A stretch of DNA of 64,000 bases from Eledone cirrhosa (lineage: Eukaryota). The stretch is taken from assembly GCA_964016885.1 (NCBI GenBank), contig OZ024742.1, positions 324,756,001 to 324,820,000 on the forward strand, given 5' to 3'. Both the position numbers and the translations under genes were made by a program. The notes beneath the pieces were generated by a model. It was not told where the DNA came from and did not search any database. It saw only the letters and a program-made list of their open reading frames with translations. Numbering within the stretch: position 1 is the first letter of the stretch; the number at the start of each line of letters is the position of its first letter. Below are positions 6,002-63,090 of this stretch, one piece after another.

Positions 6002-8026
6002 TTACCTTACTTCTCGTAGGGGAAGGACGGTTTTTCCATCCTTTTCACTGCTTGTGGCCTCCTCAGGAAGGATGTCCTTATAAATCCTCCTGGAGAGTGC
6101 TTGTCGGAAGTCTCCGATATCTTTGGGAAATTTTTTTTTTAGTGTCATGTACGTTTTCTGTGTGATGCGAGTGATTTGTATGTGTGGAGGTGGTGTGAAT
6201 TTTGGGGTTGTTGTGTAGTCTTTTTCTGTGATGCTGGTGTTGTGTTGGATGTAGTGTAATAATTGCTTGTTGTTCAAATTTAATGCTGTGTAGTGTGTAT
6301 CGTTTTGGTTGTTTTGTTTTGTTTGCGTTTGTTGTGGGTTTGTTTCTGTTTCGCTTTTTTGGTGACTTTTGTGGTGTAGGTGATGGTGGTGTTGGGGTTA
6401 ATGATGGTGAAGGTGTTGGTGTTTGGGTTGATGGGGTTGGTGATGCTGGTGTGGATGGTGGCATATCTGTCCTAACTTTTTTGTTTCTTAGTTTATTTGT
6501 TTCTCTCTGTATTTTGTTTTTGGAGGGGGAAGGAAGAGAATTTTTTCTTTTTTGGTTTCTTTTTTTTTTTCCCGGATATCGTTTCCCACTCCTCGTCATC
6601 ACAATCTGTCTCCAGTTGTGATAGGCCGGGGAGTGGAAAATCCTCCACAGGCGTTAGTTTTGGTTGTGGCGTGGTGGATGGTGTAGGCGCTGGTGCTAGT
6701 TCTGAAGCGTTGGGTGGTGGTGGTGTTGGTTTTGCTGGTGGTGGTGGTGGTGGTGGTTTTGCTACTGTTGCTGGCGTTCTTGCTGTTATAGTTGCTTCTG
6801 TTGTTGCTGCTACAGTTGTTGCTGCCATCTCTGCTACTGGTGGTATTGATGGTTGTGTCACTGGGGTGGGTAGGAGAGGTGGCCTCAACCTTTTAGCCTG
6901 AGGGCAGAAAGCCCTTAGGTGGGTTCCTTCACCATAAACGACACACCTAGGTCTTCTGCCCTCGACAATTACCGTGAGGTGGCTGCCGTCAGTGAGGTCT
7001 ATTACCTCTGGGATCTCCTCAATGCTTTTTTGGTCCGCTTGGATCAGAAGCTCCATCCCAGATCCGGACCAGTTCTCCTGCTTTTCTTTTGCTATTGCTA
7101 TTATTTTTGTGTTGGCTTCGATGCCGGCGAGGACGGCCGCTATTAGCCAGGGAATTTCGATGGCCGGTGGAACGTGGGTCACCCTGATCTTTACGAGTCT
7201 CTGGCCACAATAGCTTGGGACGAGTGTGAAGTCGTCACTTCTTAATGGGGCCATGGAGTGTTCTCTAGCCTCCTCTGGTGTTTCAAAGAACACGTCCACG
7301 GTTCCATACTTTTGCCCACGTCTGATGTGGGTTTTTCTTGCCCACACATGTCCCAAAGCTTTTTGGATTTGGGACTCGGATGCCCGTTCCACTCGGCGCG
7401 ATTTTACATTTATTGTTCGATACGACACGGTGCATAGGCGCGGATGCTCCATTTTATTAGGTGGGGGTGGGGTGAGGCTGACCCTGTACCCATCTTTCTT
7501 TACCATTTGTTTGGCATTTTCTAAATCCTCCTGAGTTACCGTAAATGCTTCGAACTGTTTTGCTACTCTGGCGAAACTGAGGGTGGTTTTTATAATGTCA
7601 TTGTTGTTGTTGTTGCTATCGTTATTTGTGTTAATATTAATTTTAGTTTCAGTTGTGGTGGTGGTGACATCAGTCGTCTTTGGTGGGGAAGAGTCCATTT
7701 TGCTTGATTTCATTTCGACATCACGAGTTAATTTATTTTTTTCTTGTTTTGTTTCTGTTGTCGCGGTGGTGGTGGGGTGGTGGTTGTCGCGGTGGTGGTG
7801 GGGTGGTGGTTGTCGCGGTGGTGGTGGTGGTGGAGGCTTTAACACCTGCAGTCATTGGTAATGGCAGGAAATGAATGTCTGCCTGAGACAAATTTAAAAT
7901 ATTGCTAATGCTTATATTTTTTGTAGTGTTGACAAACGTAGTAACATTTACAATGGTGGTGTCGGTGTGAGGTGTTAATTTGTGAGGAAGGCTTTCAGCT
8001 GCTTGGTGCAGAGGTGAATTAGCCAT
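6002..8026 (-). pseudogene. Tx1-type ORF1 (gag-like; Pro/Thr-rich, degenerate CCHC knuckle), frameshifted in simple repeats
   Basis: Track ORFs 7733-8026, 6493-7845, 6078-6602 and 6002-6277 chain together; RPRCVVYGEGTHLRAFCP knuckle-like motif; ends about 35 bp before the ORF2 ATG. Confidence 0.75.
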
Positions 8027-8909: not shown

Positions 8910-11900
8910 GGTTCAAACCTTCCCATCACTTCGGAGCTGGAGACCTCCCATAACCGGAATACTCCTACTGTTGGCCCTCCATGCTCACCACCAAGAAATC
9001 CAAAGAAAAGAGAGAAAAATGGTCAAGGGAAGATAATAAAGAAGTCCTTGAGGCTTTCTACACTGCCATGTACTACCCATCAAATACATCGAATACAGAA
9101 CAGACATATATCAACTGGAAAAAGAAACATCCCGAAAACAGAGGCTATATTGACAGTAATAAACTAGCCAATATACGAAGAAATATTGTAAGAAAAAAGT
9201 TACTAACTGATATAGAAATTGATCAGATCAAGCTATTAGCACAAAGTCAGCGAAGGGAAAATGAAACATGTGTCAGTGAAAACGAGGTAAACTGTAACAC
9301 TTCGAATTCCAGGGTTGGGGCGGAATCACTGGCAACAGAACAAATTAAAGAAAGGATCGAAAAAGTGGAGGGAGTGCATGCTCAGGATGAAACTCCAAAT
9401 GAAAATAATGAGATTGTAAATGATAAAGAAATGAATGAGAATGAACTTGCCAACTTGAAGGATGAAATTATGATCGAATGGATGAAAATGAAAGAATCTG
9501 ACATGGGGCAACGAGACACTCTCGCTAAGATCCAGAACTCCAAACAGAACCAAAAGATAATACACAAGACTAACATAATTCTCAAAAACATTATCATCAC
9601 AAACAAACTAAACATTACTGATTTAAATCATCTCTATTATGCATCGGCTAAAGTCACCACTCACTTATGTGGAGTGAAGATGATAAAACAAAGGAATTCC
9701 CACAAGAAATCTACTTGGCAAGAGAACATCAATCGCCAAATAAACCTTCTCCGATCTGACATAGAAATTTTAACAAACTATAAAGTAGGTGAACATGTTA
9801 AACAAACTAAACTTAAAAAATTGAAAAAAAAGTACAGTATAAAATCAACATGTGACATAGACATGCTGATAGAAATAATCAAGCAAAAAGTGTCGGCCAA
9901 AGCTGCTCGTATAAGGCGCTTTGAAAAACGATCTAGATTCTATAAGGACAATAATATGTTCAAAAACAACCAAAGAAACTTCTACAGAAAAATTGCTAAG
10001 TCAATAATAACTGCTAAATCAATACCACCCAAGGAGGAAGTGCAAGAATTCTGGGAAAAGATCTGGGCCGAAGAAAAAGTTCATAACATACATGCCCCAT
10101 GGATAGACAGACAAATGAAAGATACAGCTCACCTTGAGGAACAAATATGGGAAAATATAACAGTTGAACAGTTGCGCTTGGCTCTAAGAAAAACCAGCAA
10201 ATGGAAATCCCCAGGAAAAGACAAAATACAAAACTTTTGGATAAATGCCTTCACAGAGTCTCATGAGCTGTTAGCCCAACTTTACAATGAAATAGTTAAG
10301 GAGCCAGAAAAGATACCATCATGGCTAGTTAACGGCATTACATTCCTGCTTCCGAAGAATGATGAGACAAACAATCCCAAAAATTACAGACCGATAACTT
10401 GCTTGACCACAATGTATAAAATTTTAACATCAGTCCTAACTGAATACACATATGACCACCTGATAACAAATGACCTATTTCCCATTGAGCAGAAAGGGTG
10501 TAAACGAGGCTCATATGGCTGTAAGGATCAGCTTCAGGTTAACAAAATGATACTGGAAGATTGTCATAATAGACACAAAAATCTATCGATTGCTTGGATA
10601 GATTATAAAAAAGCATTTGATAGTTTGCCACACAGTTGGATTGAAAAATGTTTAGAGATTTTCAAAATATCCCCCGTTGTCTGGAGGTTTTTGTCATTCA
10701 GTATGAAGACATGGAAAACGACACTACTTTTGAATAGTGAAACAAAATCACTGGAAGCTGGAGAAGTTAATATTAATTGTGGAATTTTTCAGGGTGACTC
10801 TTTATCACCGCTTTTATTCTGCATCGCACTTATACCATTAAGTAAAATGCTCAATGAAACAAAACATGGATATAAAGTCTATGAGAAAACCATTAATCAC
10901 TTGTTCTACATGGATGACCTGAAACTATTTGCAAAAAATGATGAACAATTGCAAGGGCTATTATCCACTGTGGAGCAGTTCAGTGATGACATTAAAATGG
11001 AGTTTGGCCTAGATAAATGCGCCAAACCAACGTTCACCAGAGGAAAGCTACTGAAGAGTTCAGACATTAATCTTGATCGGGGGAACGTGATAAGAGAACT
11101 TGATCAAGAAAAAACTTACAAATATCTAGGTGTTTGTGAAGGAGACGGAATCAAGCACTCGACAATGAGGGAAAGGATAAGGAAGGAATGTTACCGCAGA
11201 GTAGGAGCAATCTTAAGAACGGAATTGAATGCAAGGAATAGGATCGATGCCATAAACACGCTTGCCATACCAGTAGTAACCTACAGTTACAATGTCATCA
11301 ACTGGTCAAGCACAGAGATCCGTAGGCTCGATACAAAAATTCGAAAATTCTTAACCATGCACAGAATGCATCACCCTAAGGCAGATATAGATAGAATATA
11401 TCTCCCTAGGAAAGAAGGAGGACGTGGGTTAATCCAGTTAGACATTGCGTTGAAAACTGCAACAATTGGATTATCTACATATCTAAGGGAATCACATGAT
11501 TGGATGATCAAACTCGTTTTGAAACACGAAAGCAGCAAAAGATCATATTCCATTACAAAAGATGCACAAAGATACAGTAATGGACTACAAATTTCAGAAG
11601 TCCCATTTACTGCTGAAATGGAAAACACAGAAAAAACAAAGCAGGTAAAAGTAACTGCAAAGAAAGAACTGCTACAGAAACTGGCTAAGAAATGGCAAGA
11701 AAAGCCTCTGTATGGAAAATACCCAGAACGAGCTAACAATCCTGATGTTGACAAAACTTTAACCCATCAGTGGTTGGCATCCTCTGGACTGAAATCGGAG
11801 ACTGAAGGACTGATTATATCAGCACAAGATCAGTGTCTGCCAACAAAAAATTACCAAGCCAACATAATAAAAAATGGAAGCAGCCCATTATGCCGTGTAT

Positions 11901-12620
11901 GTAAAAAACAACCAGAGACCATTGACCATATAATTTCAATGTGCAGTCCTATAGCTCCAACCGAATACCTAAATAGGCATGACAGAGCAACACAATACAT
12001 ACATTGGATAATGTGTAAGCATTTTGACCTGTCCCATCAAAAGAATTGGTGGGAGCATCAACCACCTCCCATACTTGAAAAAGATCACATCTCAATCTTG
12101 TGGAACTTTAGCATCCAAACAGACCGAAAAATAGATACAAATAGACCTGATATAATATTGAACGACTTTAAAAAGAGGGTGTGCCTGCTAATTGATATGT
12201 CTGTTCCAATAGACAAGAATGTATCTATAAAAACATTTGAAAAATTGAGCAAGTATAAGGACCTGGAGATAGAAATTGGAAAAATGTGGAAAGTGAGAAC
12301 TAAAACAGTACCAGTGGTTGTAGGCGCTCTGGGAATGATATCTAAGGGGTCTAATGATTACTTATCGCAAATCCCAGGAAACCCGCGTATATGAGAAATA
12401 CAAAAGATAGTACTAATGGGAACTGCCCATACACTAAGGAAGATTCTGTCAATATAAGTACATCACAAGTCTAAACACTAAAGATGCATGTGTGAGTATG
12501 TATGTTCTTTCTTGAACATGGCAGACCTTGTTTTCTCTTGAGGTCACTGGTTGTGACTTGGTGATAACTCGTATGAACATAAAGCAAGATAAATGCAACT
12601 GTAACAATAATAATAATAAT
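8910..12620 (+). mobile_element. Dong/R4-clade RLE non-LTR retrotransposon
   Basis: Single long RT+RLE ORF, ~145-bp 3' UTR and (AAT)n tail at 12606-12620. The 5' boundary is approximate. Confidence 0.88.
8981..12457 (+). CDS. Dong/R4 polyprotein: RT + CCHC + restriction-like endonuclease; premature TGA at 12392-12394, frame continues to TAA at 12455-12457
   Basis: WKSPGKD, NYRPITCL, DYKKAFDS, GIFQGDSLSP, FYMDD; CRVC..ETIDHIISMC, RHD, RPDII, LIDMSVP, KLSKY. After the TGA the frame reads EIQKIVLMGTAHTLRKILSI*. Confidence 0.92.
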
Positions 12621-15600
12621 TCTTTCTTTATTAACCACAAGGGTTTACATAAAGTAGACATTAAGGACAGTACAGGACAATACAGGGCGGTACGAATGGG
12701 CATTTCTGCGTGTAAAAAAAAAAACAGAGGATGTAATAAAAACAACAAGGAAAAATTCCCCAATAAGGGGGAGACTTCCGAGGGACATTTGTGGAGAAAG
12801 CCCATTAAAAGGCCACAGTGATCCTGACCACCAAGGCAAGTGCCCTGTCCCAGTTTTCCACCTTTAATTTACAGACACATACTCAGATAGACCCATTCAC
12901 TCGGGCCATACTTGCTTCTCTCACCCATCTTTCAACAAAATGCTGGGAAGAGAGCACTTCCCTCTCTACCCTGATTTTCCTTCTTAAATGAAATTTGAAA
13001 AAGTTAATCAGGGCATCACCGAAGAGGTAAGTGCTCGTCTTCAGCCCTTTCAAACGTGTCCACCATATTATCTCTTTCGCCACGGCCACCAGACAGATAA
13101 AAACTGCCTGCCCTTCCCGGCTAAAGAAAGAGGGCGGAGCAATCCTCACGATGGACTCAGCTGATAGCTGGATCCGTCCTACACGTGACAGCAGGTGTTC
13201 GACATAAACCCACAAGTCAGCAATGCTCGGACACTGGACGAGTGCGTGACCGTTCACTCTCACCACAGAGTAGATGTCGCTGTGCATGGCAGCGATCCAG
13301 CCTCTGAAGACGGGTCCAAACCCAGCCGCCCTCAGGACTGCCGCTAGGTAACGATGGTCGACCCTATCGAAATCTTTCGACTGATCTAAATTGATCAAGG
13401 ACCTACCCGTGCCAGGTTCCCTAGCTACCCTCTCTACGATGTATCGCATAAGGTGGAGGTTGTCGTGGATGGATCTGTCGGAAATGGCGCACGTATGCGC
13501 CTCTCCCACCAGACCACCAACGACAAGCGCCAACCTCTTTGCTAGCACCGTGGCCAAAATCTTGAACTCTGTGTTTAGCAGAGTTATGGGCCTGAAATTA
13601 TCGATGTTATCCCCCTTGTTCAGATCCTTTCTCAGCAGCGCCACAGCTTCTCGACTCACAGAGCTGGGAATTCTCCCGTTCTGTTGCCAGTTGCAGTAGA
13701 CGTCCGCCAAGAGGCCTCCGAAAAAGTCTGGCATCTGTACGTAAAGTTTATAGGGCAGACCATCCAAACCAGGCGATTTACCCCTTGTGCAGCCAGTCAT
13801 TGCCTCCCGTACTTCAGCGGCTGTTATCGGCTTTTGGCAACACTCCACCTCAGTGGCCGAGAGCCGCGGCAGTCCGTCGAGGTAGACACTAAAGTCCATC
13901 CCTCGATCCGGCCCGCCACTGCCCCCGAACAGCCATGCAAAGTGTCGCTGGAAAGCTTCACACATTTGCCCGGCATCGAGTAGCATGCGCCCGTCGTGGT
14001 CCACCAAAGACCGGATCGTGGCTTTGTTGCCACGACGCGCCTCCGCCACTCGGGCCCATTGAACGGCTTTCGTCCCCTCGTGTCTGAGAGTACGCACCCT
14101 AGCTCTGACAACGCAGCCTTTGTGCTTTGCATTGAAGAATTGGTCAAGGGCCGCAAGTACGTCGGTCGCGATGCCTTTGCTAAGCGCCTCGTCTAATTTT
14201 CTAACTAATTCTCCCTCTGCTCTATTTTTCTCTATTGCTAAAGCCTTACTAAACCTAATGGACTCTATTCTAATCGCTCCTTTCAGAGCAAACCATTACT
14301 TGTTGTTGACGATGGCCTCCGCGAACGCCCGCTTAACTAGTTCGCTAATCTGGTCTCTGTAGGCCTTGCGCGCTGGTAAAGACGCGTTTAGCTTCCAGTA
14401 GCCGGTTCCTCGTCTATGAAGCCTATCTAAGTCAAGCACACATATCACGAATTTGTGATCCGTGTAGCTGACTATCTTGAATTGTGGACAGCCTATGCTA
14501 GACCTATCTATTTCCCTACAAAATACTCTATCTAGATATGATCTGGATGACCCTGTGCGATTTGTCCAAGGCCACATTGGCACATTCGGGAAATCCAATC
14601 GGTACCTATCAGACAGTTCAAATCGCCTGAGCAGGTTGGTGAGGCTCTTGCACCCTCCTCCCCTATCCGCTAATCCCACACAGTCCCAGCGTGCATCTAA
14701 GATCCCGTTCCAGTCGCCCACTAACACTAAAGAGCGGGACGTTCCAAGAAAGGTCTCCAGACGCCGGAAGAAATCAGGCCGCCCTGCTCCTGTCGGGGCA
14801 TAGACAGCCACTAGCCTAAAAGCTTGCCCGTCTCCGCTGGTCACGTCCAGCACCACCAACTTACCTTCTGGGTCCAGGAAGATGGCCCGTATGGCGAGAT
14901 CCAAACCTCTCCGAAAAAGCACAGCAACTCCTCCCCCGATCCAGGACGGCTGGGAGATGCGTACGCATCGTAGCCGCCGAAGATCGGTGCGAAGGCCCGT
15001 GCTTCGGAGATTCTGGTCTCGCTGATGGCCACAACATCTGTTTAGTGACCTGAGGTCGTTAAGCAGGTAGCCCTGCTTCCATGACCACCCCAAGCCACGC
15101 ACATTTATGCTGCCTATTTGGAGTGAGGTCATGTTGAAATGGAGTGGAAAAGATGGGAAAGGCCACTTACCTTACTTCTCGTAGAGGAAGGATGGTTTGT
15201 CCATCCTTTTCCCTGCTTGTGGCCTCCTCCGGAAGGATGTCCTTATAAATTCCCGGAGAGTGCTTGTCGGAAGTCTCCGATGTCTTTGGAGAATTTTTGT
15301 TTTAGTGTCGTGTACGTTTTCTGTGTGATTCGAGTGATTTGTAAGTGTGGAGGTTGTGTGAACTTTTGGGTTGTTGTGTAGTCTTTTTCTGTGATGCTGG
15401 TGTTGTGTTGGATGTAGTGTAATAATTGGTTGTTGTTCAAATTTAATGCTGTGTAGTGTGTATCGTTTTGGTTGTTTTGTTTCGTTTGCGTTTGTTGTGG
15501 GTTTGTTTCTGTTTCGCTTTTTTGGTGACTTTTGTGGTGTTGGTGATGGTGGTGTTGGGGTTAATGATGGTGATGGTGTTGGTGTTTGTGGTGATGGGGT

Positions 15601-15846
15601 TGGTGATGCTGGTGTGGATGGTGGCATAGCTGTCCTAACTTTTTTGCTTGATAGTTTATTTGTTTCCCTCTGTATTTTGTTTTTGGAGGGGGAAGGAAGA
15701 GGATTTCTTCTTTTTTGGCTTCTTTTTCTTTTTTCTTTTTTCCCGATAACGTTTCTCACTCCTCGTCGTCACAATCTGTCTCCCGTTGCGATAGGTCGGG
15801 GAGTGGAAAATCCTCCACGGGCGTTGGTGTTGGTTGTGGCGTAGTG
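12621..15846 (-). mobile_element. Second Tx1 copy, 5'-truncated in ORF1, with an internal deletion of about 1.14 kb in ORF2
   Basis: Highly similar to 2304-6676; VRVNGH is joined directly to ALVQC at 13246-13248; abuts the (AAT)n tail of the Dong element. Confidence 0.93.
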
Positions 15847-20688: not shown

Positions 20689-20737
20689 AACGGTGCTGAT
20701 GATAGCTAACAAGCTTGAAACTAGCTAGTACATCGTT
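20689..20737 (+). ncRNA. Type I hammerhead ribozyme (stem III lengthened by a 4-nt duplication)
   Basis: aacggtg CTGATGA t agct aaca agct t GAAA ctagctag TA catcgtt. Confidence 0.8.
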
Positions 20738-21166
20738 CCTGTGTCAGTGTTGAACAAAAAGGTGACGTGGTTGCCTTAACACCGTATGGCATAAATTCAG
20801 GCTGTTCAGTTTGTTTACAAACGAACAAAGCGACGTTATAATAAGCGCCGCTAAACTGATACGTGCATATATGTATGTGTACCTGTATGCATATGTATAT
20901 ATATATGTATATATATATATATATATGTGCATGCTACTGTACGTCTGTATACATATATGTATGTACGTATACATGCATACTTACATTTAAGTAAGTGCCA
21001 TACTAAGAGTGAGAAATGAAATTTCGTTTTCATTTTGTTTCAATTTATCGTTTTCGGTATGCCTGACCGATTTAACTCACTCAATATGCAAATTAGGCTG
21101 CTCAGCCGTTAATTTTCATAAGGAAAGTATATACTTTCGAACGTTCAACTATCTGGCAGATGGGTA

Positions 21167-21211
21167 AACGGTGCTGATGATAGCTAACAAGCTTGAAACT
21201 AGTACATCGTT
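21167..21211 (+). ncRNA. Minimal type I hammerhead ribozyme
   Basis: aacggtg CTGATGA tagctaacaagctt GAAA ctag TA catcgtt; 7-bp stem I, palindromic ACUAGU stem III, GUA cleavage triplet. Confidence 0.85.
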
Positions 21212-21351
21212 CCTGTGTCAGTGTTGAACAAAAAGGTGACGTGGTTGCCTTAACACCGTATGGCATAAATTCAGGCTGTTCAGTTTGTTTACAAACGAAC
21301 AAAGCGACGTTATAATAACCACGTCACCTTTTTGTTCAACACTGACACAGG

Positions 21352-21396
21352 AACGATGTACTAGTTTCAAGCTTGTTAGCTATCATCAGCACCGTT
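21352..21396 (-). ncRNA. Minimal type I hammerhead ribozyme
   Basis: Reverse complement of the 21167-21211 motif. Confidence 0.85.
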
Positions 21397-21630
21397 TACC
21401 CACCTGCCAGATGGTTGAACGTTCGAAAGTATATACTTTCCTTATGAAAATTAACGACTGAGCAGCCTAATTTGCATATTGAGTGAGTTAAATCGGTCAG
21501 GCATACCGAAAACGATAAGTTGAAAAAAATGAAAACGAAATTTCATTTCTCACTCTTAGTATGGCACTTACTTAAATGTAAGTATGTATGTATACGTACA
21601 TACATATATGTATACAGACGTACAGTAGCA

Positions 21631-21665
<35 letters not shown>

Positions 21666-21813
21666 CATATGCATATATATATATACACATATGCATATAT
21701 ATATATACACATATGCATATATATATATACACATATGCATTAGGCTGCTCAGCCGTTAATTTTCATAGGGAAAGTATATACTTTCGAACGTTCAATTATC
21801 TGGCAGATGGGTA

Positions 21814-21858
21814 AACGGTGCTGATGATAGCTAACAAGCTTGAAACTAGTACATCGTT
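21814..21858 (+). ncRNA. Minimal type I hammerhead ribozyme
   Basis: Same motif; CTGATGA at 21821-21827. Confidence 0.85.
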
Positions 21859-22020
21859 CCTGTGTCAGTGTTGAACAAAAAGGTGAGGTGGTTGCCTTAA
21901 CACCGTATGGCATAAATTCAGGCTGTTCGCTTTGTTGACAAACAAACGAACAAAGCGGCCGGCGTTATAATAAACGTCGACTAAACTGATGCGTGCATAT
22001 ATGTATGTGTACCTGTATGC

Positions 22021-22073
<53 letters not shown>

Positions 22074-22235
22074 TGCTACTGTACGTCTGTATACATATAT
22101 GTATGTACGTATATATACATACTTACATTTAAGTAAGTGCCATACTAAGAGTGAGAAATGAAATTTCGTTTTCATTTTTTTTCAACTTATATATATACAT
22201 ATATATATTTATATATATTTATATATATTTATATA

Positions 22236-22267
<32 letters not shown>

Positions 22268-22324
22268 ATGAATTACTGTTGCCTTCACGCTCACAATAAT
22301 TTCTAAACTTTCATTTAAATAAAG

Positions 22325-22355
<31 letters not shown>

Positions 22356-22358
22356 TAA

Positions 22359-22413
<55 letters not shown>

Positions 22414-22420
22414 GATATAA

Positions 22421-23099
22421 TAACTAGAGATTGATTAACATATAAATAAACATGAATAATCACAGGAGATCATTTTTACAAGTGTGTAACCACACATAGC
22501 TAGGTAGGTAACTAAATAAAGTTGACCAGAACTTCAAAAATAGATACCTTATAATAATTAATCAGATGGTAAACCACAGAAGTGGATACTTGGATTTTCA
22601 ACAAGGAAGAAGTTCCAGCAATCCGTGTTTACGCTTCAAGTTCAAATCAGCGACTGGCCAGCACGTGTAGTATTTACTAGAAATACACACACCATACTAG
22701 CTTCGTCCCAGTGGCGTGAATAGGGTTATCGACAACTAGAAACAGCAGTCGAGTCCTTTCAACAGAGTTAGCTCTACAATTAAGGAGCCGTATTTATATA
22801 TCTATATCCAAAATTAAGAGAAATCAAATGAATTTAATCTAAATCAAAATTATGGGTGTCATGCCAGAAAGACATGCGCCATATCACCCGCAAAATAAGC
22901 TCTAAGATTCTAACGAGTAGGTCCGAGCATTTTATAATAACTAGAGATTGATATTTATATGTTAATCAATCTCTAGTTATTATAAAATGCTCGGACCTAC
23001 TCGTTAGAATCTTAGAGCTTATTTTGCGGGTGATATGGCGCATGTCTTTCTGGCATGACACCCATAATTTTGATTTAGATTAAATTCATTTGATTTCTC

Positions 23100-23108
<9 letters not shown>
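22421..23108. mobile_element. ~517-bp non-coding element with a terminal direct repeat and an inverted partial copy
   Basis: taactagagattgat at 22421 and 22938; ~140-bp perfect inverted arms at 22810-22952 / 22965-23108; flanked by (TA)n. Confidence 0.7.
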
Positions 23109-23161
<53 letters not shown>

Positions 23162-23233
23162 AATTACTGTTGGCTTCATGCTCACAATAATTTCTATACT
23201 TTCATTTATATAAATATATATACATAAATACAA

Positions 23234-23264
<31 letters not shown>

Positions 23265-23285
23265 AATATATATACATAAATACAA

Positions 23286-23476
<191 letters not shown>

Positions 23477-23635
23477 ATATATAAGTATTTATGTATGTAT
23501 ACGTACATACATATATGTATACAGATGTATAGTAGTATGTATATATATACATACATGCACATAAACAAACAGCCCGAATTACACCGTACAGTGTTTAGGC
23601 AACCACGTCACCTTTTTGTTCAACACTGACACAGG

Positions 23636-23680
23636 AACGATGTACTAGTTTCAAGCTTATTAGCTATCGTCAGCATCGTA
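23636..23680 (-). ncRNA. Hammerhead ribozyme, diverged copy
   Basis: tacgatg CTGACGA tagctaataagctt GAAA ctag TA catcgtt. Changes fall at N7, loop II and the outer stem I position, plus a G-U to A-U change that keeps stem I paired. Confidence 0.8.
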
Positions 23681-28356: not shown

Positions 28357-31300
28357 CGAAGGAAATGTGGTAACGAACCAGATGGACCATAACGCACCAA
28401 AGTACTCAATACTTAGGGTAGTAGAGTGGGTAATAGGAACAAGTACGACACCGACGGCAGAGCTCAAGCCGTTTCGACGGCTAATTCTGGACTAAATAAT
28501 AATTTTTAGCCTGGTAAATAAATAGCCGAACTTCTCAGGGGGGTAATGCCATATATGGGGAGTTAGTAATTGTCTAAAGGATTGGTCAAAAATTTGTTGT
28601 AAAGACAGATGATTCTATCATGGCATTTAGTGGATGGTAGGGGCAGCTGAACTTGCCGGTAGAACAAAGAGGGAGTGTGCGAAACCCAGTCAAGCGTTGA
28701 AAGTGAAATCTATACAGCAGATTCTAAGGATAGTGTATAGAAGGTCAAAAAAAGTGTACTGGCGAAGGGGAGGGGCGGGGGTTTGAAAAAATAGGTAAAC
28801 CGAAAGGGAGTAAACAAAAAAGCCATTATAAAAATGAGGAAATAAATATATAAAAAAACAAATATATAAAAAAACAATTTCTGGTTACTGCTCCACCCCC
28901 CACAATTACCAAATCTCTCATTGGTATTGCTAAGCTATAGAGAAGTTTAATAGGTGGAGAAAAATGCTAAATACGGGATTGTAGTGAAATAATTTTATAA
29001 AGCCATCTTTACAGGGGGGTCTAACACCACTGCTATAGTTAGTAGTAATCAGCCAATGCTATCTTACAATGACAGGGTAATAAGTTAAAGACAAACATAC
29101 TAAAAAACTAATACGAAATATTAATTCAGAATACTAATACATAAATATTAATACAAGAATACTAATGCAAAAATACCACTAAGAAATTTAGAAATCACGG
29201 AAATGGAGCAGCAACCATAAAGAAAGCAATTATCTGGGGTCTAACACATCTGCTATAAAAAGCGTAATCGACCAATTCTATCTTAAAATCAGGGGGGGGG
29301 GGGGTTGAGGCTACAGAGGACCGATGGGCTGCATCGGGGTGGGCGAAAAGGTGAACAAAAAAGACGACAAGGAAGGAGATCTGGGGTGGAAGGACTAGGA
29401 AGAGATGTGGGGAAGAAGGAAATATAGAAGAAAAGATTAAAAAAAAGTTACGTCTACCTTTGTAAGCAGGGGTTACCCCTTAGTGGGGTGTTTCAGCCCT
29501 TGTATACCCACCCGGGTCATTATGGGGTTTGAGGGCGTGGTAAGTCCTACGCAATCTGTGTTTGCATGCAGTTACCAGTTCGTCTTTCTTGTTTAGGAGT
29601 TGGTCCTTCGAAAACAGCATTTGTAATGTTTCCTCCGAGCATATATTACACGGACGGCGTCCTCCCGTGTAAGAGTTAGCTCTGGACAGTAAATTCCTTA
29701 GCAAATTAACAGAGTATGAAAACACCAACGACATCATGGTGCACTCGGACAAAACCGGTAACCTCTACTTCGTCAACCCCGACTGATACCACACACTGAT
29801 CAGGAGCAGCCTCAACTCCACCTATAAAAAGGCTAACCATTCAAGTATCGAGGACATAAATCGGGATGGACAACAAATTACCTCCAGCCTCGCACTGAAC
29901 CCCTAGACAACAGACTCCCTACTTCACACTGAAGGACCACAAATCCGACTTCGACCGTAAATCATCCATCAGGCTTATGTACCCAACGAAGTCCGACATA
30001 GGGAGAATCAGTAAAAAAAATCCTAGACAGCGTTATACCAAAAGTTAAGCAAAGCGCGAGACTTAGCCTATGGGTCAACACCCAGTAAGTAATCTCATGG
30101 TTCAGCAATATGGAGGACAAACGAGACACAAAATTCATCCAGTTTAACACAGAGAGTTACTATGCTTCAATTATCTTACCGCTCCTTACGGCCGCCTTGG
30201 ACTTTGCCGAAACACTCACGCCCATCACGGACCAGGAAAGAAATATCATCCTCCACGCCAGGAAGACAGTCCTACTTTTCGACAACTCCAAATGGATAAA
30301 CAGACCTCCTGACTCCCCTTTCGTCAGTATGGGCGCGATGGATTCGGCTGAGGTCACATATCTTATAGGATTATTCCTACTATTTAAAATCACCGAAATG
30401 TTTCCTGCATTCGGCGGTGGATTGTACCGTGATGATGGACTCCTTACCCTCAAAGAGTACAACCCCAGTAGTACAGACCGGGTCCGTAAACAATTAATCA
30501 GCTTCTTCCGCGACTTGGGATTTAAAATAACCCTACAAACGTCCCTAACCCGAGTAAACATCCTGGACGTTACCCTTAACCTCAATAATGATCTGTACTA
30601 CCCATACAGGAAACCAAACGACAACCTACATTACATCCACCGCCGGTCGAACCATCCTAGAAACCACCAATAACCTGGTTAAAAACATCTCACTCCGCAT
30701 ATCTCGTTTGTCCGCTAATGAGCAGATATTCGATGAACATGCGCCTTATTACAATCAGGCCCTCAAGCGGAGTGGCTTCCGGGAGGAAATATCCTATTAT
30801 CCAGCTTCCATTAGCGGAACCAGCAGGCGACACCGCCGCTCACGCAACGTAACATGGTTCAATCCTCCCCACAATGCCGAGGTGACAACACCTATCGGGA
30901 AAATCTTCTTTAGGCTCATCGAAAAACACTTCCCACTACAACACCGCTACCACAACATAATCAACAAAAACACCATCAAACTCTCCTACAGCACCACACC
31001 TAACTTTGCACAAAACATCGTCTCCTCTAACAACAAAAAACTCAATGCCTATGGAAGAAATAACCTAGACAGCAGTGAAGAGCCGACCACGAGGTGTAAC
31101 TGTCCTGATAGATCCCTTTGCCCCTCAACAACAGATGCCGAGATCGTAATGTGATCTACCAGTGCAACGTGAGGAAAAACAAAGCTCCAACAAAGCTTAT
31201 ATAGGATTAACTGCTTGTGACTTCAAGACCCGGCTCTACCTGCACACATACTTTCCGAAACCCGACACGGCGTCACCCCATTACACGTTCGGGCCACATC

Positions 31301-32797
31301 TGGGACCTCAAAGATAATAATATAACCTACAATCTCACTTGGAGCTTACTGTCCAGAGCTAACTCTTACACGGGAGGACGCCGTCCGTGTAATCTATGCT
31401 CGGAGGAAACATTACAAACGCTGTTTTCGAAGGACCAACTCCTAAACAAGAAAGACGCATTGGTAACTGCATGCAAACACAGATTGCGTAGGACTTACCT
31501 CGCGCTCAAACCCCATAATGATCCGGGTGGGCAGACAAGGGCTGAAATACCCCACTTGCCGACTTTGTATGGGGTAACCCCTGCTTACAACGGTAGACGT
31601 AACTTTTTTTTTTTAAAATCTTTTCCTCTATATTTTCTTCTTCCCCCCCCATCTCTTCCTAGTCCTTCCACCCCAGATCTCCTTCCTTGTCGTCTTTTTT
31701 GTTCACCTTTTCGCCCACCCCGATGCAGCCCATCGGTCCTCTGTAGCCTCAACACACTCCACCCTAATTTTAAGATAGAATTGGTCGATTACGCTTTTTA
31801 TAGCAGATGTGTTAGACCCCAGATAATTGCTTTCTTTATGGTTGCTGCTCCATTTCCGTGATATCTAAAATTTCTTAGTGGTATTTTTGCATTAGTATTC
31901 TTGTATTAGTATTTATGTATTAGTATTCTGAATTAATATTTCGTATTAGTTTTTTAGTCTGTTTGTCCTCTAACTTATTAACCTGCCATTGTAAGATAGC
32001 ACTGGCTGATTACTACTAACTATAGCAGTGGTGTTAAACCTCCTGTAAAGATGGCTTTATAAAATTCTTAGTAGTATTTTTGCATTAGCATTCTTGTATT
32101 AGTATTTATGTATTAGCATTCTGAATTAATATTTCGTATTAGTTTTCTTAGTATGTTTGTTCTCAACTTATTAACCTATCATTGTAAGATAGCATTGGCT
32201 GATTACTACTAACTATAGCAGTGGTGTTAGACCCCCTGTAAAGATGGTTAAATAAAATTCTTCCACTACAATCCCGTATTTAGCATTTTTATCCACCTAT
32301 TAAACTTCTCTATAGCTTAGCAATACCAATGAGAGATTTGGTGATTGTGGGGATGGTGCAGTAACCAGAAATGTTTTTTTATATATTTGTTTTTTTTATA
32401 TATTTATTTCCTCATTTTTATAATGGCTTTTTTGTTTACTCCTTTTCGATTTACCTATTTTTTCACCCCCCTTTCTCCAGTACACTTTTTTCGACCTTCT
32501 ATACACTATCCTTAGAAACTGCTGAATATATTTCACTTTCAACGCTTGACTGTGTTTCCCCCACTCCCTCTTTGTTCTACCGGCAAGTTAGCTACCCCTA
32601 CCTTCCATTAAATGCCATGATAGAATCATCTATCTTTACAACAAATTTTTGACCAATCCTTTGGACAATTACTATCTTCCCATATATGGAATTACCCCCT
32701 GAGAAATTCGGCTATTTATTTACCAGGCTAAACATTCTTATTTAGTCCAGAATTTACCGTCGAAATGGCTTGAGCTCTGCCGTCGGGGTCATAATTG

Positions 32798-56194: not shown

Positions 56195-56293
56195 ATATAA
56201 TAACTTGTGTGTTACACCTCTATTCTTTTAACTATATATATATATATATATATAAGTATGTATACGTACATACATATATGTATACAGACGTAC

Positions 56294-59200
56294 TGTCTAA
56301 TGCCATGTGCGTTTTTCACCGCTAGTTGACTCCTTTGCCGCCAGGATAAAACTCGTTGACAACGTAAACTCCATTCCACTTATTCTAGTAGGCTTTTATA
56401 TTTATATGTGAGCTGATAGAGTACTGTCTAAGGATTTACAGAAACCCATGAAGCTAGATTTAACACCTTTCTAGTGGGTCCGGGTATGATTTTACATTCA
56501 TTTAAATTATTGACGTATTGTTTTATTGATATTTTTTATCTGTTTGGCCCGAATCTTCCTTTATCGATTTTAAATCGTATGGTTGATTGTAGACTTGTTC
56601 TATATGTGACGGTATTTTAACGATAGTTATAGCTCTGATTCATCTGAATTATTGAGCCCTCTGCCGCTCATATCGGATTTCGTTTTTCGTTAACTCGTGC
56701 GCCGATTTTTCGATACTCGATCTTTCTAATATATTTAGCTCTGGACATAGCTATCCACCAGTTAATTTTATTGCTCATATTTTGTCGATTCTATTGAGTG
56801 ATGAATAGCTTTTGTTTTATTTTAACATGTCTATTGAGCACTCTAATTCGATATGTGTATTTCCACATTCACTCGAATTATTTTCGCGGATATAGGGGTC
56901 ATCTCCCTTGTCTAATGCCATGTGCGTTTTTCACCGCTAGTTGACTCCTTTGCCGCCAGGATAAAACTCGTTGACAACGTAAACTCCATTCCACTTATTC
57001 TAGTAGGCTTTTATATTTATATGTGAGCTGATAGAGTACTGTCTAAGGATTTACAGAAACCCATGAAGCTAGATTTAACACCTTTCTAGTGGGTCCGGGT
57101 ATGATTTTACATTCATTTAAATTATTGACGTATTGTTTTATTGATATTTTTTATCTGTTTGGCCCGAATCTTCCTTTATCGATTTTAAATCGTATGGTTG
57201 ATTGTAGACTTGTTCTATATGTGACGGTATTTTAACGATAGTTATAGCTCTGATTCATCTGAATTATTGAGCCCTCTGCCGCTCATATCGGATTTCGTTT
57301 TTCGTTAACTCGTGCGCCGATTTTTCGATACTCGATCTTTCTAATATATTTAGCTCTGGACATAGCTATCCACCAGTTAATTTTATTGCTCATATTTTGT
57401 CGATTCTATTGAGTGATGAATAGCTTTTGTTTTATTTTAACATGTCTATTGAGCACTCTAATTCGATATGTGTATTTCCACATTCACTCGAATTATTTTC
57501 GCGGATATAGGGGTCATCTCCCTTGTCTAATGCCATGTGCGTTTTTCACCGCTAGTTGACTCCTTTGCCGCCAGGATAAAACTCGTTGACAACGTAAACT
57601 CCATTCCACTTATTCTAGTAGGCTTTTATATTTATATGTGAGCTGATAGAGTACTGTCTAAGGATTTACAGAAACCCATGAAGCTAGATTTAACACCTTT
57701 CTAGTGGGTCCGGGTATGATTTTACATTCATTTAAATTATTGACGTATTGTTTTATTGATATTTTTTATCTGTTTGGCCCGAATCTTCCTTTATCGATTT
57801 TAAATCGTATGGTTGATTGTAGACTTGTTCTATATGTGACGGTATTTTAACGATAGTTATAGCTCTGATTCATCTGAATTATTGAGCCCTCTGCCGCTCA
57901 TATCGGATTTCGTTTTTCGTTAACTCGTGCGCCGATTTTTCGATACTCGATCTTTCTAATATATTTAGCTCTGGACATAGCTATCCACCAGTTAATTTTA
58001 TTGCTCATATTTTGTCGATTCTATTGAGTGATGAATAGCTTTTGTTTTATTTTAACATGTCTATTGAGCACTCTAATTCGATATGTGTATTTCCACATTC
58101 ACTCGAATTATTTTCGCGGATATAGGGGTCATCTCCCTTGTCTAATGCCATGTGCGTTTTTCACCGCTAGTTGACTCCTTTGCCGCCAGGATAAAACTCG
58201 TTGACAACGTAAACTCCATTCCACTTATTCTAGTAGGCTTTTATATTTATATGTGAGCTGATAGAGTACTGTCTAAGGATTTACAGAAACCCATGAAGCT
58301 AGATTTAACACCTTTCTAGTGGGTCCGGGTATGATTTTACATTCATTTAAATTATTGACGTATTGTTTTATTGATATTTTTTATCTGTTTGGCCCGAATC
58401 TTCCTTTATCGATTTTAAATCGTATGGTTGATTGTAGACTTGTTCTATATGTGACGGTATTTTAACGATAGTTATAGCTCTGATTCATCTGAATTATTGA
58501 GCCCTCTGCCGCTCATATCGGATTTCGTTTTTCGTTAACTCGTGCGCCGATTTTTCGATACTCGATCTTTCTAATATATTTAGCTCTGGACATAGCTATC
58601 CACCAGTTAATTTTATTGCTCATATTTTGTCGATTCTATTGAGTGATGAATAGCTTTTGTTTTATTTTAACATGTCTATTGAGCACTCTAATTCGATATG
58701 TGTATTTCCACATTCACTCGAATTATTTTCGCGGATATAGGGGTCATCTCCCTTGTCTAATGCCATGTGCGTTTTTCACCGCTAGTTGACTCCTTTGCCG
58801 CCAGGATAAAACTCGTTGACAACGTAAACTCCATTCCACTTATTCTAGTAGGCTTTTATATTTATATGTGAGCTGATAGAGTACTGTCTAAGGATTTACA
58901 GAAACCCATGAAGCTAGATTTAACACCTTTCTAGTGGGTCCGGGTATGATTTTACATTCATTTAAATTATTGACGTATTGTTTTATTGATATTTTTTATC
59001 TGTTTGGCCCGAATCTTCCTTTATCGATTTTAAATCGTATGGTTGATTGTAGACTTGTTCTATATGTGACGGTATTTTAACGATAGTTATAGCTCTGATT
59101 CATCTGAATTATTGAGCCCTCTGCCGCTCATATCGGATTTCGTTTTTCGTTAACTCGTGCGCCGATTTTTCGATACTCGATCTTTCTAATATATTTAGCT

Positions 59201-62200
59201 CTGGACATAGCTATCCACCAGTTAATTTTATTGCTCATATTTTGTCGATTCTATTGAGTGATGAATAGCTTTTGTTTTATTTTAACATGTCTATTGAGCA
59301 CTCTAATTCGATATGTGTATTTCCACATTCACTCGAATTATTTTCGCGGATATAGGGGTCATCTCCCTTGTCTAATGCCATGTGCGTTTTTCACCGCTAG
59401 TTGACTCCTTTGCCGCCAGGATAAAACTCGTTGACAACGTAAACTCCATTCCACTTATTCTAGTAGGCTTTTATATTTATATGTGAGCTGATAGAGTACT
59501 GTCTAAGGATTTACAGAAACCCATGAAGCTAGATTTAACACCTTTCTAGTGGGTCCGGGTATGATTTTACATTCATTTAAATTATTGACGTATTGTTTTA
59601 TTGATATTTTTTATCTGTTTGGCCCGAATCTTCCTTTATCGATTTTAAATCGTATGGTTGATTGTAGACTTGTTCTATATGTGACGGTATTTTAACGATA
59701 GTTATAGCTCTGATTCATCTGAATTATTGAGCCCTCTGCCGCTCATATCGGATTTCGTTTTTCGTTAACTCGTGCGCCGATTTTTCGATACTCGATCTTT
59801 CTAATATATTTAGCTCTGGACATAGCTATCCACCAGTTAATTTTATTGCTCATATTTTGTCGATTCTATTGAGTGATGAATAGCTTTTGTTTTATTTTAA
59901 CATGTCTATTGAGCACTCTAATTCGATATGTGTATTTCCACATTCACTCGAATTATTTTCGCGGATATAGGGGTCATCTCCCTTGTCTAATGCCATGTGC
60001 GTTTTTCACCGCTAGTTGACTCCTTTGCCGCCAGGATAAAACTCGTTGACAACGTAAACTCCATTCCACTTATTCTAGTAGGCTTTTATATTTATATGTG
60101 AGCTGATAGAGTACTGTCTAAGGATTTACAGAAACCCATGAAGCTAGATTTAACACCTTTCTAGTGGGTCCGGGTATGATTTTACATTCATTTAAATTAT
60201 TGACGTATTGTTTTATTGATATTTTTTATCTGTTTGGCCCGAATCTTCCTTTATCGATTTTAAATCGTATGGTTGATTGTAGACTTGTTCTATATGTGAC
60301 GGTATTTTAACGATAGTTATAGCTCTGATTCATCTGAATTATTGAGCCCTCTGCCGCTCATATCGGATTTCGTTTTTCGTTAACTCGTGCGCCGATTTTT
60401 CGATACTCGATCTTTCTAATATATTTAGCTCTGGACATAGCTATCCACCAGTTAATTTTATTGCTCATATTTTGTCGATTCTATTGAGTGATGAATAGCT
60501 TTTGTTTTATTTTAACATGTCTATTGAGCACTCTAATTCGATATGTGTATTTCCACATTCACTCGAATTATTTTCGCGGATATAGGGGTCATCTCCCTTG
60601 TCTAATGCCATGTGCGTTTTTCACCGCTAGTTGACTCCTTTGCCGCCAGGATAAAACTCGTTGACAACGTAAACTCCATTCCACTTATTCTAGTAGGCTT
60701 TTATATTTATATGTGAGCTGATAGAGTACTGTCTAAGGATTTACAGAAACCCATGAAGCTAGATTTAACACCTTTCTAGTGGGTCCGGGTATGATTTTAC
60801 ATTCATTTAAATTATTGACGTATTGTTTTATTGATATTTTTTATCTGTTTGGCCCGAATCTTCCTTTATCGATTTTAAATCGTATGGTTGATTGTAGACT
60901 TGTTCTATATGTGACGGTATTTTAACGATAGTTATAGCTCTGATTCATCTGAATTATTGAGCCCTCTGCCGCTCATATCGGATTTCGTTTTTCGTTAACT
61001 CGTGCGCCGATTTTTCGATACTCGATCTTTCTAATATATTTAGCTCTGGACATAGCTATCCACCAGTTAATTTTATTGCTCATATTTTGTCGATTCTATT
61101 GAGTGATGAATAGCTTTTGTTTTATTTTAACATGTCTATTGAGCACTCTAATTCGATATGTGTATTTCCACATTCACTCGAATTATTTTCGCGGATATAG
61201 GGGTCATCTCCCTTGTCTAATGCCATGTGCGTTTTTCACCGCTAGTTGACTCCTTTGCCGCCAGGATAAAACTCGTTGACAACGTAAACTCCATTCCACT
61301 TATTCTAGTAGGCTTTTATATTTATATGTGAGCTGATAGAGTACTGTCTAAGGATTTACAGAAACCCATGAAGCTAGATTTAACACCTTTCTAGTGGGTC
61401 CGGGTATGATTTTACATTCATTTAAATTATTGACGTATTGTTTTATTGATATTTTTTATCTGTTTGGCCCGAATCTTCCTTTATCGATTTTAAATCGTAT
61501 GGTTGATTGTAGACTTGTTCTATATGTGACGGTATTTTAACGATAGTTATAGCTCTGATTCATCTGAATTATTGAGCCCTCTGCCGCTCATATCGGATTT
61601 CGTTTTTCGTTAACTCGTGCGCCGATTTTTCGATACTCGATCTTTCTAATATATTTAGCTCTGGACATAGCTATCCACCAGTTAATTTTATTGCTCATAT
61701 TTTGTCGATTCTATTGAGTGATGAATAGCTTTTGTTTTATTTTAACATGTCTATTGAGCACTCTAATTCGATATGTGTATTTCCACATTCACTCGAATTA
61801 TTTTCGCGGATATAGGGGTCATCTCCCTTGTCTAATGCCATGTGCGTTTTTCACCGCTAGTTGACTCCTTTGCCGCCAGGATAAAACTCGTTGACAACGT
61901 AAACTCCATTCCACTTATTCTAGTAGGCTTTTATATTTATATGTGAGCTGATAGAGTACTGTCTAAGGATTTACAGAAACCCATGAAGCTAGATTTAACA
62001 CCTTTCTAGTGGGTCCGGGTATGATTTTACATTCATTTAAATTATTGACGTATTGTTTTATTGATATTTTTTATCTGTTTGGCCCGAATCTTCCTTTATC
62101 GATTTTAAATCGTATGGTTGATTGTAGACTTGTTCTATATGTGACGGTATTTTAACGATAGTTATAGCTCTGATTCATCTGAATTATTGAGCCCTCTGCC

Positions 62201-62257
62201 GCTCATATCGGATTTCGTTTTTCGTTAACTCGTGCGCCGATTTTTCGATACTCGATC

Positions 62258-62269
<12 letters not shown>
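56294..62269. repeat. 615-bp tandem array, about 9.7 apparently identical copies, non-coding
   Basis: tgtctaatgccatgtgcg at 56294, 56909, 57524 ... 61829; no differences seen by eye; no ORF of 60 aa or more in the track. Confidence 0.97.
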
Positions 62270-62313
<44 letters not shown>

Positions 62314-62318
<5 letters not shown>

Positions 62319-62735
62319 CATGCACACATATATATATGTACGTATGGATTCACCGAACATTTATTATAATGCTCGGTGTGTTTGTAAACAAACATCCCGA
62401 ATTAAGCCGTACAGTGTCTAGCAACCATCGTAATAAGCTTGAAACTAGTACAGCGTTCCTTTGTCAGTGTTGAACAAATGAGCAACGATGGTTGCTAGAC
62501 ACTGTACGGCTTAATTCGGGATGTTTGTTTGCAAACACACCGAGCATTATAATAAATGTTCGGTGAATCCATACGTACATATATATATATGTTTGCATGT
62601 ATGTATATATATATATATATATATATATACATACTACTGTACGTCTGTATACATATAAGTATGTACGTATACATACTTATATTTAAGTAACAGCCGTACT
62701 AAGCGTAAGAAATGAAATTTCGTTTCATTTTTGCC
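62314..62735. mobile_element. Palindromic copy of the retrozyme-like family (partial hammerhead); the distal part of its left arm lies at 56253-56293
   Basis: aagcttgaaactagtacagcgttcc...gtcagtgttgaacaaa; inverted arms ~62314-62431 / ~62485-62605; 56253-56293 is the reverse complement of ~62639-62679. Confidence 0.8.

Positions 62736-62787: not shown

Positions 62788-63090
<303 letters not shown>

What the first reader, a model, noticed from the sequence alone, without database searches (positions are those of the whole stretch)
56253..62735. Perfect 9.7 x 615-bp non-coding concatemer inserted inside a hammerhead retrozyme-family element: a rolling-circle insertion?
Seen: a 615-bp T-rich unit is repeated head-to-tail from 56294 to 62269, with a non-integer copy number and no visible substitutions, although the other repeat families here are visibly diverged. 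It splits the left arm of a palindromic retrozyme-family copy: 56253-56293 continues after (TA)n at 62314, with about 9 bp (agtagtatg) missing and no TSD. Its right end runs into (TA)n, like the PLE-type insertions in this window. It has no ORF and no 5S/snRNA/tRNA signature. Inference: one recent event in which a PLE-type RT copied a circular RNA (or a DNA circle was copied) about 10 times. That would be a non-coding mobile circle without a canonical hammerhead, and a possible way for satellites to arise.
Basis: partly seen in the sequence, partly recalled or inferred. Interest (0 to 1): 0.75.

Follow-up and report, generated by a model that had tools for sequence, protein, structure and literature searches.

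The report
Ribozyme circle copied round into DNA
This is one fresh copy of a 615-base, protein-free jumping element that carries a hidden, predicted self-cutting hammerhead in every repeat and sits at about 700 places in the genome, and its copies bear marks suggesting that a Penelope-type enzyme likely read a single small RNA circle round and round into AT-repeat DNA, a step long proposed for such elements but not yet shown.

Summary
The array is real: 9.72 identical 615-bp units. It is one of 710 dispersed insertions that end at the same base against (TA)n; the other end varies. So this is a non-LTR retrozyme. Evidence for rolling-circle reverse transcription of one RNA molecule per insertion: 52 of 71 multi-unit arrays carry their own variant in all units; private errors lean T>C over A>G (11:1, looser count 15:0); some arrays misread one site differently on scattered passes, and one stops next to it; 15 of 47 sub-unit insertions begin just 3' of the predicted cut; arrays reach 26.6 units and the youngest are longest. 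An intact Hydra-type Penelope-like element has the same rare core and also forms concatemers at (TA)n, but shares no other sequence, so the helper is a candidate only. Cleavage and the circle are not shown. The scan noted this same family before at another locus (e1-8667680).

The parts
56294..62269 (+). Concatemer of 9.72 identical 615-bp units of a non-LTR retrozyme; 5' end truncated at unit position 175 (unit numbered so that 615 = fixed end)
   Evidence: same haplotype as the commonest young arrays
56351..56485 (+). First of 10 variant type I hammerheads (repeats every 615 bp to 61886-62020): stem I, U3-A8 core with an extra unpaired base on each side of stem II, 78-nt stem II arm, long stem III, GUC triplet
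56480..56481 (+). Predicted self-cleavage site (unit 361|362), recurring every 615 bp
   Evidence: position; 15 of 47 sub-unit insertions start 4-30 nt 3' of it
62264..62269 (+). Fixed 3' end = inferred main start site of reverse transcription; exact base blurred by 4-6 nt shared with (TA)n
   Evidence: 710 junctions genome-wide, control 0; 19 of 20 arrays picked by unit similarity end here, the 20th runs into a gap
57236..57241 (+). Minor second end (unit ~506, in every unit), used at 9 loci, 5 of them two-armed; not used at this locus
62270..62313 (.). (TA)22 target tract, internal to the host element
56253..56293 (-). Outer 41 bp of the host element's inverted arm; 9 bp of target lost at the array's 5' junction
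62314..62735 (.). Rest of the two-armed (palindromic) host copy of another hammerhead repeat family (period about 430 bp in L188); only the 3' half of its minimal hammerhead is present, about 62427-62452
30089..31861 (+). Decayed copy of the Hydra-type Penelope-like family that is the candidate helper (not part of the insertion)

Best explanation
The array is one young insertion of a non-coding 615-nt retrozyme: each unit carries a predicted self-cleaving hammerhead, and the insertion was likely written by a Penelope-like reverse transcriptase that primed at a (TA)n break and likely read one circular RNA monomer about ten times. Steps: (1) an array is transcribed on the U-rich + strand (inferred); (2) the hammerhead cuts every 615 nt (motif shown, cutting inferred from the start peak); (3) part of the monomers are ligated to circles (inferred); (4) a GIY-YIG/RT protein cuts (TA)n and starts cDNA at a fixed internal site 254 nt 3' of the cut (fixed site shown, enzyme inferred); (5) on a linear monomer synthesis ends near the cut and leaves a 220-250-bp insert, on a circle it runs on for up to 26 rounds (lengths shown, template form inferred); (6) the cDNA end is joined to the target, mostly by TA microhomology, here with a 9-bp deletion (shown).
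For: Fixed 3' end and variable 5' end at 710 loci. Hammerhead: descriptor hits 10 of 10 units, + strand only, 0 of 1000 shuffles; the isolated motif folds as the three-way junction in the unit, two sister families and the PLE; 223 of 224 cells paired in 16 sequences, 3 of 5 stem II pairs change on both sides, slid controls 18-48%; inner stem III switches A-U to G-C, 70 of 70 cells paired in 14 sisters; 4,067 copies. Cut used in vivo: 15 of 47 sub-unit inserts start at 362-392, against 1 in 331-361 and 0 in 393-423 (p 6e-9), while only 5 of 80 longer arrays stop there; a microhomology-weighted null gave mean 3.9, max 12 against 18 of 110. One template unit per array: 52 of 71 arrays with two or more full units carry a variant in all units, 36 distinct haplotypes. 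Error-prone copying of the + strand: 29 singleton substitutions in 264 kb (1.1e-4), T>C 11 vs A>G 1 (p 0.03), pooled wobble types p 0.035; looser count 15 vs 0. Re-reading of one molecule: L044 has G307>T in 5 of 13 scattered units and stops at 308; L142 shows four states at one site over 13 units; L171, L165, L166, L102 similar. Youngest arrays are longest (rho -0.53, n 55) and reach 26.6 units. Two end sites, two-armed copies and AT targets match Penelope-type priming (PMC11167929). An intact 784-aa PLE with the same UUGANAA core forms 3,531-bp concatemers ending in (TA)n.
Against: No cleavage assay and no circle observed. In PMC11167929 hammerhead cleavage was not needed for insertion in vitro and uncut RNA was the main template; in the 2026 preprint 8 of 9 predicted retrozymes did not cleave in vitro. 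The error bias weakened from 15:0 to 11:1 with more loci and a stricter filter, and G>A vs C>T (7:4) is not significant. Several mosaic sites lie in T runs and could be consensus errors; raw reads of this assembly were not seen. Old arrays may be short because they shrank. No excess of errors or stops at the presumed ligation site in multi-unit arrays. The unit and the candidate PLE share no sequence beyond the ribozyme core (local score 28, null mean 25.6, max 35). No promoter was identified.
Confidence: 0.66

Rival explanations
1. Same retrozyme and enzyme, but the template is a cut linear monomer and the RT jumps from its 5' end back to its 3' end (or to another monomer) again and again, telomerase- or DRT2-like; no covalent circle.
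For: Also gives one haplotype per array and re-read lesions; PLE RTs are telomerase-related (PMC8557442 abstract); linear monomers are clearly used (start peak).
Against: Repeated jumps should leave scars at 361|362; none among private variants in 50 young arrays, and only 5 of 80 long arrays stop there. Monomer circles are shown for other animal retrozymes (PMC7229834 discussion).
Confidence: 0.12
2. Short (1-2 unit) retro-insertions later expand at DNA level by unequal exchange or extrachromosomal-circle amplification, the usual satellite route proposed for retrozyme tandems in the 2026 preprint.
For: Gives one haplotype per array; a few variants sit in two adjacent units (L166, L074, L159).
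Against: Youngest arrays are longest, median 9.9 units against about 1 for older ones; most private variants are singletons and strand-biased; L044 and L142 mosaics are scattered with several outcomes, and L044 ends at its site.
Confidence: 0.09
3. Uncut multimeric read-through transcripts of existing arrays are reverse transcribed from an internal start site; no monomer step.
For: Uncut RNA is the main substrate of the one PLE studied in vitro; the hammerhead fold is 2-3 kcal/mol above the predicted minimum in full-length RNA.
Against: Cannot fix new variants in all units of an array (36 such haplotypes); daughters should repeat the parent's unit-specific variants in register, and the only shared private variants (456T>C, 107C>T) lie on different haplotypes.
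Confidence: 0.07
4. A DNA circle moved by a Helitron-like HUH rolling-circle transposase with one fixed origin end.
For: Fixed end plus variable end and concatemers are also expected from one-ended rolling-circle transposition (recalled, not tested against references).
Against: A conserved RNA ribozyme, a start peak at its cut, an error rate near 1e-4, two-armed copies with a second start site, and no Helitron-type terminal hairpin seen.
Confidence: 0.04
5. Assembly or concatemer artefact.
For: Perfect identity of the units; raw reads of this assembly not seen.
Against: 710 loci with one polarity, nested haplotypes, sister families, and the head-to-tail joint in contigs of independent runs.
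Confidence: 0.02

Closest known systems
Metazoan non-LTR retrozymes (Cervera and de la Pena 2020, PMC7229834, passages and Discussion read; Li, Clavereau and Pollet 2026, bioRxiv 10.64898/2026.07.22.740005, parts 1-3 of 5 read)
   Same: Non-coding head-to-tail repeats, low GC (36%), a type I hammerhead in every unit, dispersed monomers to multimers, co-occurring PLEs; unit length within the 51-972 bp range of the preprint. Both papers propose circle-templated reverse transcription by PLEs.
   Different: U3-A8 core with long stems II and III that folds as a monomer and escapes Rfam; no pLTR homology to the PLE examined; a mapped internal start site, start peak at the cut, per-array haplotypes and lesion mosaics were not reported in the parts read.
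PLE hammerhead variants (Cervera and de la Pena 2014, PMC4209133, parts 1-2 of 4 read)
   Same: U3-A8 core (Schistosoma Cercyon elements), extra base between positions 9 and 10.1, G10.1-C11.1 pair; long helix III as in fungal and protist PLEs; proposes circles as templates for more-than-unit copying.
   Different: There the motifs are mostly minimal dimer-type and lie in pLTRs; here a full three-helix motif with a further extra A before G12 lies in a protein-free unit.
Hydra-clade Penelope-like elements (Craig et al. 2021, PMC8557442, sections 10, 11, 15 and passages read)
   Same: Candidate helper has the clade's DKT motif, an RWR in place of RWK, CxCx5C linker, C-terminal GIY-YIG-like domain and (TA)n targets; 5' truncation, tandems, inverted arms.
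   Different: Autonomous; Hydra hammerheads were described as canonical; clade assigned here by motifs only, no tree.
Non-autonomous Chlamys elements such as MRC1 (PMC8557442 section 10)
   Same: Protein-free PLE dependants with multicopy head-to-tail insertions at microsatellites.
   Different: They mostly lack hammerheads and share 3' ends with their helpers; no such shared end was found here.
PAc Poseidon element in vitro (Frangieh et al. 2024, PMC11167929, parts 1-2 of 4 read)
   Same: Internal start of reverse transcription at two sites 3' of the hammerhead, AT-rich target, both strands extended.
   Different: Start sites 30-40 nt apart there, about 109 nt here and used 710:9; cleavage dispensable there; circular template not tested in the parts read.

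Membership tests
Non-LTR retrozyme | Short head-to-tail non-coding repeats, no LTR, PBS or ORF | tested here: met
Non-LTR retrozyme | Type I hammerhead motif in each unit | tested here: met
   variant U3-A8 core
Non-LTR retrozyme | Canonical C3-G8 core found by standard models | tested here: not met
   no Rfam hit; core is U3-A8 or U3-G8, a natural variant known from PLEs, so this marks a variant and does not exclude membership
Non-LTR retrozyme | Dispersed genomic copies, monomers to multimers | tested here: met
Non-LTR retrozyme | Self-cleavage of the transcript | tested here: inconclusive
   indirect only: start peak 3' of the predicted cut; no assay
Non-LTR retrozyme | Accumulation of unit-length circular RNA | not testable with these tools
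   needs RNA from the organism
PLE-mobilised element | Fixed 3' end, 5' truncation, (TA)n target, no clear TSD | tested here: met
PLE-mobilised element | Two start sites (tail) and inverted second arms | tested here: met
   9 minor-end junctions, 5 two-armed; rare compared with 710
PLE-mobilised element | Sequence homology to the pLTR or 3' end of an autonomous PLE | tested here: inconclusive
   none to the one intact family compared; other families among 33,522 candidates not examined
Hydra-clade PLE (candidate helper) | DKT, RWK-like and CxCx5C motifs, C-terminal endonuclease, (TA)n target | tested here: met
   protein read against section 11; no Pfam hit; no tree built
Helitron / HUH rolling-circle element | 5' TC and 3' CTRR ends with subterminal hairpin, RepHel partner | tested here: inconclusive
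   no such ends seen by eye; features recalled; no partner search run
SINE (tRNA/5S/7SL head) | Pol III RNA-derived head | tested here: not met

The most novel reading that the evidence does not exclude
A Penelope-like reverse transcriptase performs target-primed rolling-circle synthesis on a single ribozyme-made RNA circle for up to 26 rounds (16 kb), and the resulting arrays are single-molecule records: they fix the template's haplotype, log the enzyme's errors, and show damaged bases of the one circle being misread pass after pass. The superfamily's U3-A8 hammerhead is invisible to standard searches, so many 'plain satellites' of animals may be such circles.
Probability: 0.6. Interest if true: 0.75.

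Novelty: new variant of a known kind. Interest (0 to 1): 0.6.

Why it matters
How retrozymes and Penelope-like elements come to lie in tandem is an open question: circle-templated copying was proposed in 2014 and 2020 and, in the papers read here, not shown. This family is young (97 near-identical insertions), has a mapped cut site, a mapped start site and a candidate intact enzyme in the same genome, so the model can be tested in a tube with three defined parts. It also shows a way to make multi-kilobase satellite arrays in one step, and a ribozyme variant that standard searches miss.

Tried and rejected
Rfam at gathering score and at E<=10 found no ribozyme; the motif emerged only from comparing sister families. 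The CUGAUGA-like heptamer near unit position 63 and the CUGAUAGA near 294 were considered as cores and rejected: they lie in ordinary stems. A hairpin-ribozyme, HDV-like or CRESS-origin reading was considered by eye and dropped. No RNA holder listed by the look-up of sequencing runs: no evidence on expression; X13 (RNA guessed) gave only short low-complexity pieces and one 144-nt match. Raw-read runs X18 and X19 had 0 reads on the unit, which is no test. Holders with small shares (X13-X17) were not used. Helper search: PLE fragments joined inverted to the 5' end of arrays at L087 and L288 both carry stops or frameshifts, and L288's nearest relatives are about 1% apart, so they are likely older neighbours; two such joins among about 150 loci is near what PLE abundance would give (rough estimate). 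The array with the length of e1-8667680 (10,801 bp; L275/L284) has no PLE in the 7.5 kb 5' of it or the 250 bp 3' of it; further 3' DNA was not read, so that note's claim of a joined helper stays open. Pfam gave no hit for the PLE protein. Alignment A2 held a wrongly placed row and was replaced by A3. Inner stems were left out because MAFFT shifts them by one column; they were counted by anchoring, on loci selected by a pattern that fixes the core and part of stems I and III. L045 was dropped from unit counts (gap at its 3' end); 12 of 139 loci were dropped from start counts (cut off or at a gap). Literature: 6 searches showed no paper describing this family or genomic signs of single-molecule re-reading; subscription journals are not covered and supplements were not read.
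Full report
Observation. The stretch 56294-62269 has an exact period of 615 bp, 9.72 copies, no mismatch. It interrupts the inverted arm of a palindromic repeat: 56253-56293 matches the far arm, the arm resumes after (TA)22 at 62314, and 9 bp are lost at the 5' junction. There is no frame above 62 aa and no Rfam match.

It is a dispersed mobile family. A search of the own 3.0-Gb genome scored 21 of 397 candidates, all near-identical arrays. Of 20 of these read in full, 19 end at the same base against (TA)n and the 20th runs into a gap; the other end falls anywhere in the unit. The exact junction occurs 710 times, control 0, 97 times with the youngest haplotype. I read 139 loci unit by unit: 19, 60 of the first places listed on contig 1, and 60 of the 97 young ones. 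Lengths run from about 50 bp to 26.6 units. The 5' end abuts a TA tract in 66 of 110 loci. The fixed end is not a product of microhomology alone: older haplotypes share only about 4 nt with (TA)n there (614A>T in internal units) and the unit has other TA-rich sites. A second end near unit position 506 is used 9 times, and 5 of these loci have an opposite arm. Internal initiation at two sites, AT-rich targets and extension of both strands are what the one purified Penelope-like protein does (PMC11167929). Public runs of 13 studies hold the unit or part of it; one holds it as a single 645-nt contig with 7 differences, the length a closed 615-nt cycle would have (inferred), and two show the head-to-tail joint.

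The hidden ribozyme. Two sister families, 629 and about 605 nt, are also head-to-tail with the same polarity. Their shared blocks form a type I hammerhead: stem I, the core UUGANAA (U3-A8 in place of C3-G8), one extra base on each side at the foot of stem II, a 78-nt stem II arm, GAA, a long stem III and GUC. A descriptor finds it in 10 of 10 units, on + only, and in 0 of 1000 shuffles (the descriptor was written after seeing the motif). The isolated motif folds into the three-way junction in all three families. In 16 sequences 223 of 224 cells pair, with two-sided changes in 3 of 5 stem II pairs; slid controls give 18-48% (related sequences inflate the shuffle test). The inner stem III changes A-U to G-C between families; stem II is less perfect in some sisters, 56 of 70 cells. 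Position 8 toggles between A and G, both of which pair with U3. The pattern has 4,067 copies. U3-A8 and the extra base after A9 are known from PLE hammerheads (PMC4209133). The element therefore meets the sequence definition of a non-LTR retrozyme (PMC7229834; 2026 preprint).

Signs that the cut is used. Insertions shorter than one unit pile up just 3' of the predicted cut: 15 of 47 start at 362-392, 1 in the 31 nt before and 0 in the 31 nt after; weighting for TA microhomology does not explain it. That is what copying a cut, linear monomer from the fixed site to its 5' end would leave. Longer arrays pass this site freely (5 of 80 stop there), so their template was continuous across it.

Signs of one template molecule per insertion. 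52 of 71 arrays with two or more full units carry at least one variant in every unit, in 36 distinct haplotypes that nest from young to old. Copying a linear multimer cannot fix a new variant in all units. Private substitutions in 50 young arrays run at 1.1e-4 per base, with T>C 11 against A>G 1 (p 0.03) and G>A 7 against C>T 4 (not significant); a looser count on 40 arrays gave 15 against 0. The lean fits wobble errors made on the U-rich strand; mutation after insertion would be symmetric (inference). Several arrays have a private hot site: L044 reads G307 as T in units 5, 9, 10, 12 and 13 of 13 and stops at 308; L142 shows four states at one site over 13 units; L171, L165, L166 and L102 are similar, mostly changes to T or deletions. 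A damaged base in one circle, read on each pass, explains this most simply; some sites lie in T runs and could be assembly errors. The least diverged arrays are the longest (median 9.9 units against 1.3 and 1.05; rho -0.53, n 55), against slow DNA-level growth, though old arrays may also have shrunk.

The helper. A decayed Penelope-like frame in the window leads to a family with many intact 784-aa copies. It has the Hydra-clade motifs (one search read), ends in (TA)n at two sites 83 nt apart, forms its own near-perfect concatemer of 4.55 x 3,531 bp and carries the same UUGAGAA core with long stems. Among the 92 hammerhead variants found in the fetched loci, the recurring U3 cores belong to this PLE family and to the unit's superfamily. 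Beyond that core there is no sequence similarity, and other PLE families were not compared, so it is a candidate, not the proven partner.

Host element. The interrupted copy belongs to a different family with a minimal C3-G8 hammerhead, complete at five places in the window; this copy keeps only the 3' half. The new array simply used its internal (TA)n.

Earlier notes. After my reading was formed (notes 1-4) the scan's index showed the same family reported at another locus (e1-8667680) and several sister retrozymes in this genome. These agree but are not independent support. The claim of a helper joined to that copy was only partly testable and was not seen in the DNA read.

Verdict. A new variant of a known kind: a non-LTR retrozyme with a non-canonical hammerhead, and unusually direct genomic evidence for the proposed rolling-circle route. 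Cleavage, the circle and the enzyme remain inferred. Interest 0.6.

Noticed in passing
L181/L182 (G000:C1:437198328-437214407): Intact Hydra-type PLE as a 4.55 x 3,531-bp concatemer with one difference among units 2-5; more such tandems and inverted arms at L183-L192. Suggests the autonomous element also copies from a circle.
   Followed up: partly
L284:2450-3100: A further, more distant ~650-nt family with the same U3 core, the same first stem II pairs and a much longer stem III, ending in (TA)n.
   Followed up: partly
L063 and L159 (310-bp period, about 9-10 copies each): Tandem arrays of another hammerhead repeat with a minimal palindromic stem III.
   Followed up: no
window 20691-23678: Five complete minimal hammerheads of the host family, in direct and inverted arms.
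   Followed up: partly
window 62990-63070: Hammerhead-like hairpin fragment of another family between (TA)n tracts; not hit by the strict descriptor.
   Followed up: no
window 8954-12394 (+): 1,146-aa open frame of a non-LTR retrotransposon type (RT with C-terminal cysteine and nuclease-like motifs), apparently intact.
   Followed up: no
window 2548-7851 and 12883-15768 (-): Two broken copies of an L1/Tx1-like non-LTR element (ORF1 plus endonuclease-RT), by eye.
   Followed up: no
L288:4600-7495 and L087:6060-7392: Broken Hydra-type PLE copies of other families joined in inverted orientation directly to the 5' end of an array; the L288 family has many 98-99% identical copies.
   Followed up: partly
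public runs X4, X6, X11 versus X20, X21, X23, X24: Runs with the same organism code differ between holding most of the unit's words and none; X4 holds the unit at 98.9% but not the flanking repeat family. Could be library type, patchy presence or transfer between species; not resolved.
   Followed up: no
unit position ~425-432 (window ~57160): A block complementary to the strand just 3' of the cut is kept in all three families and competes with stem I in predicted folds of two of them; possible switch that protects the circle.
   Followed up: partly
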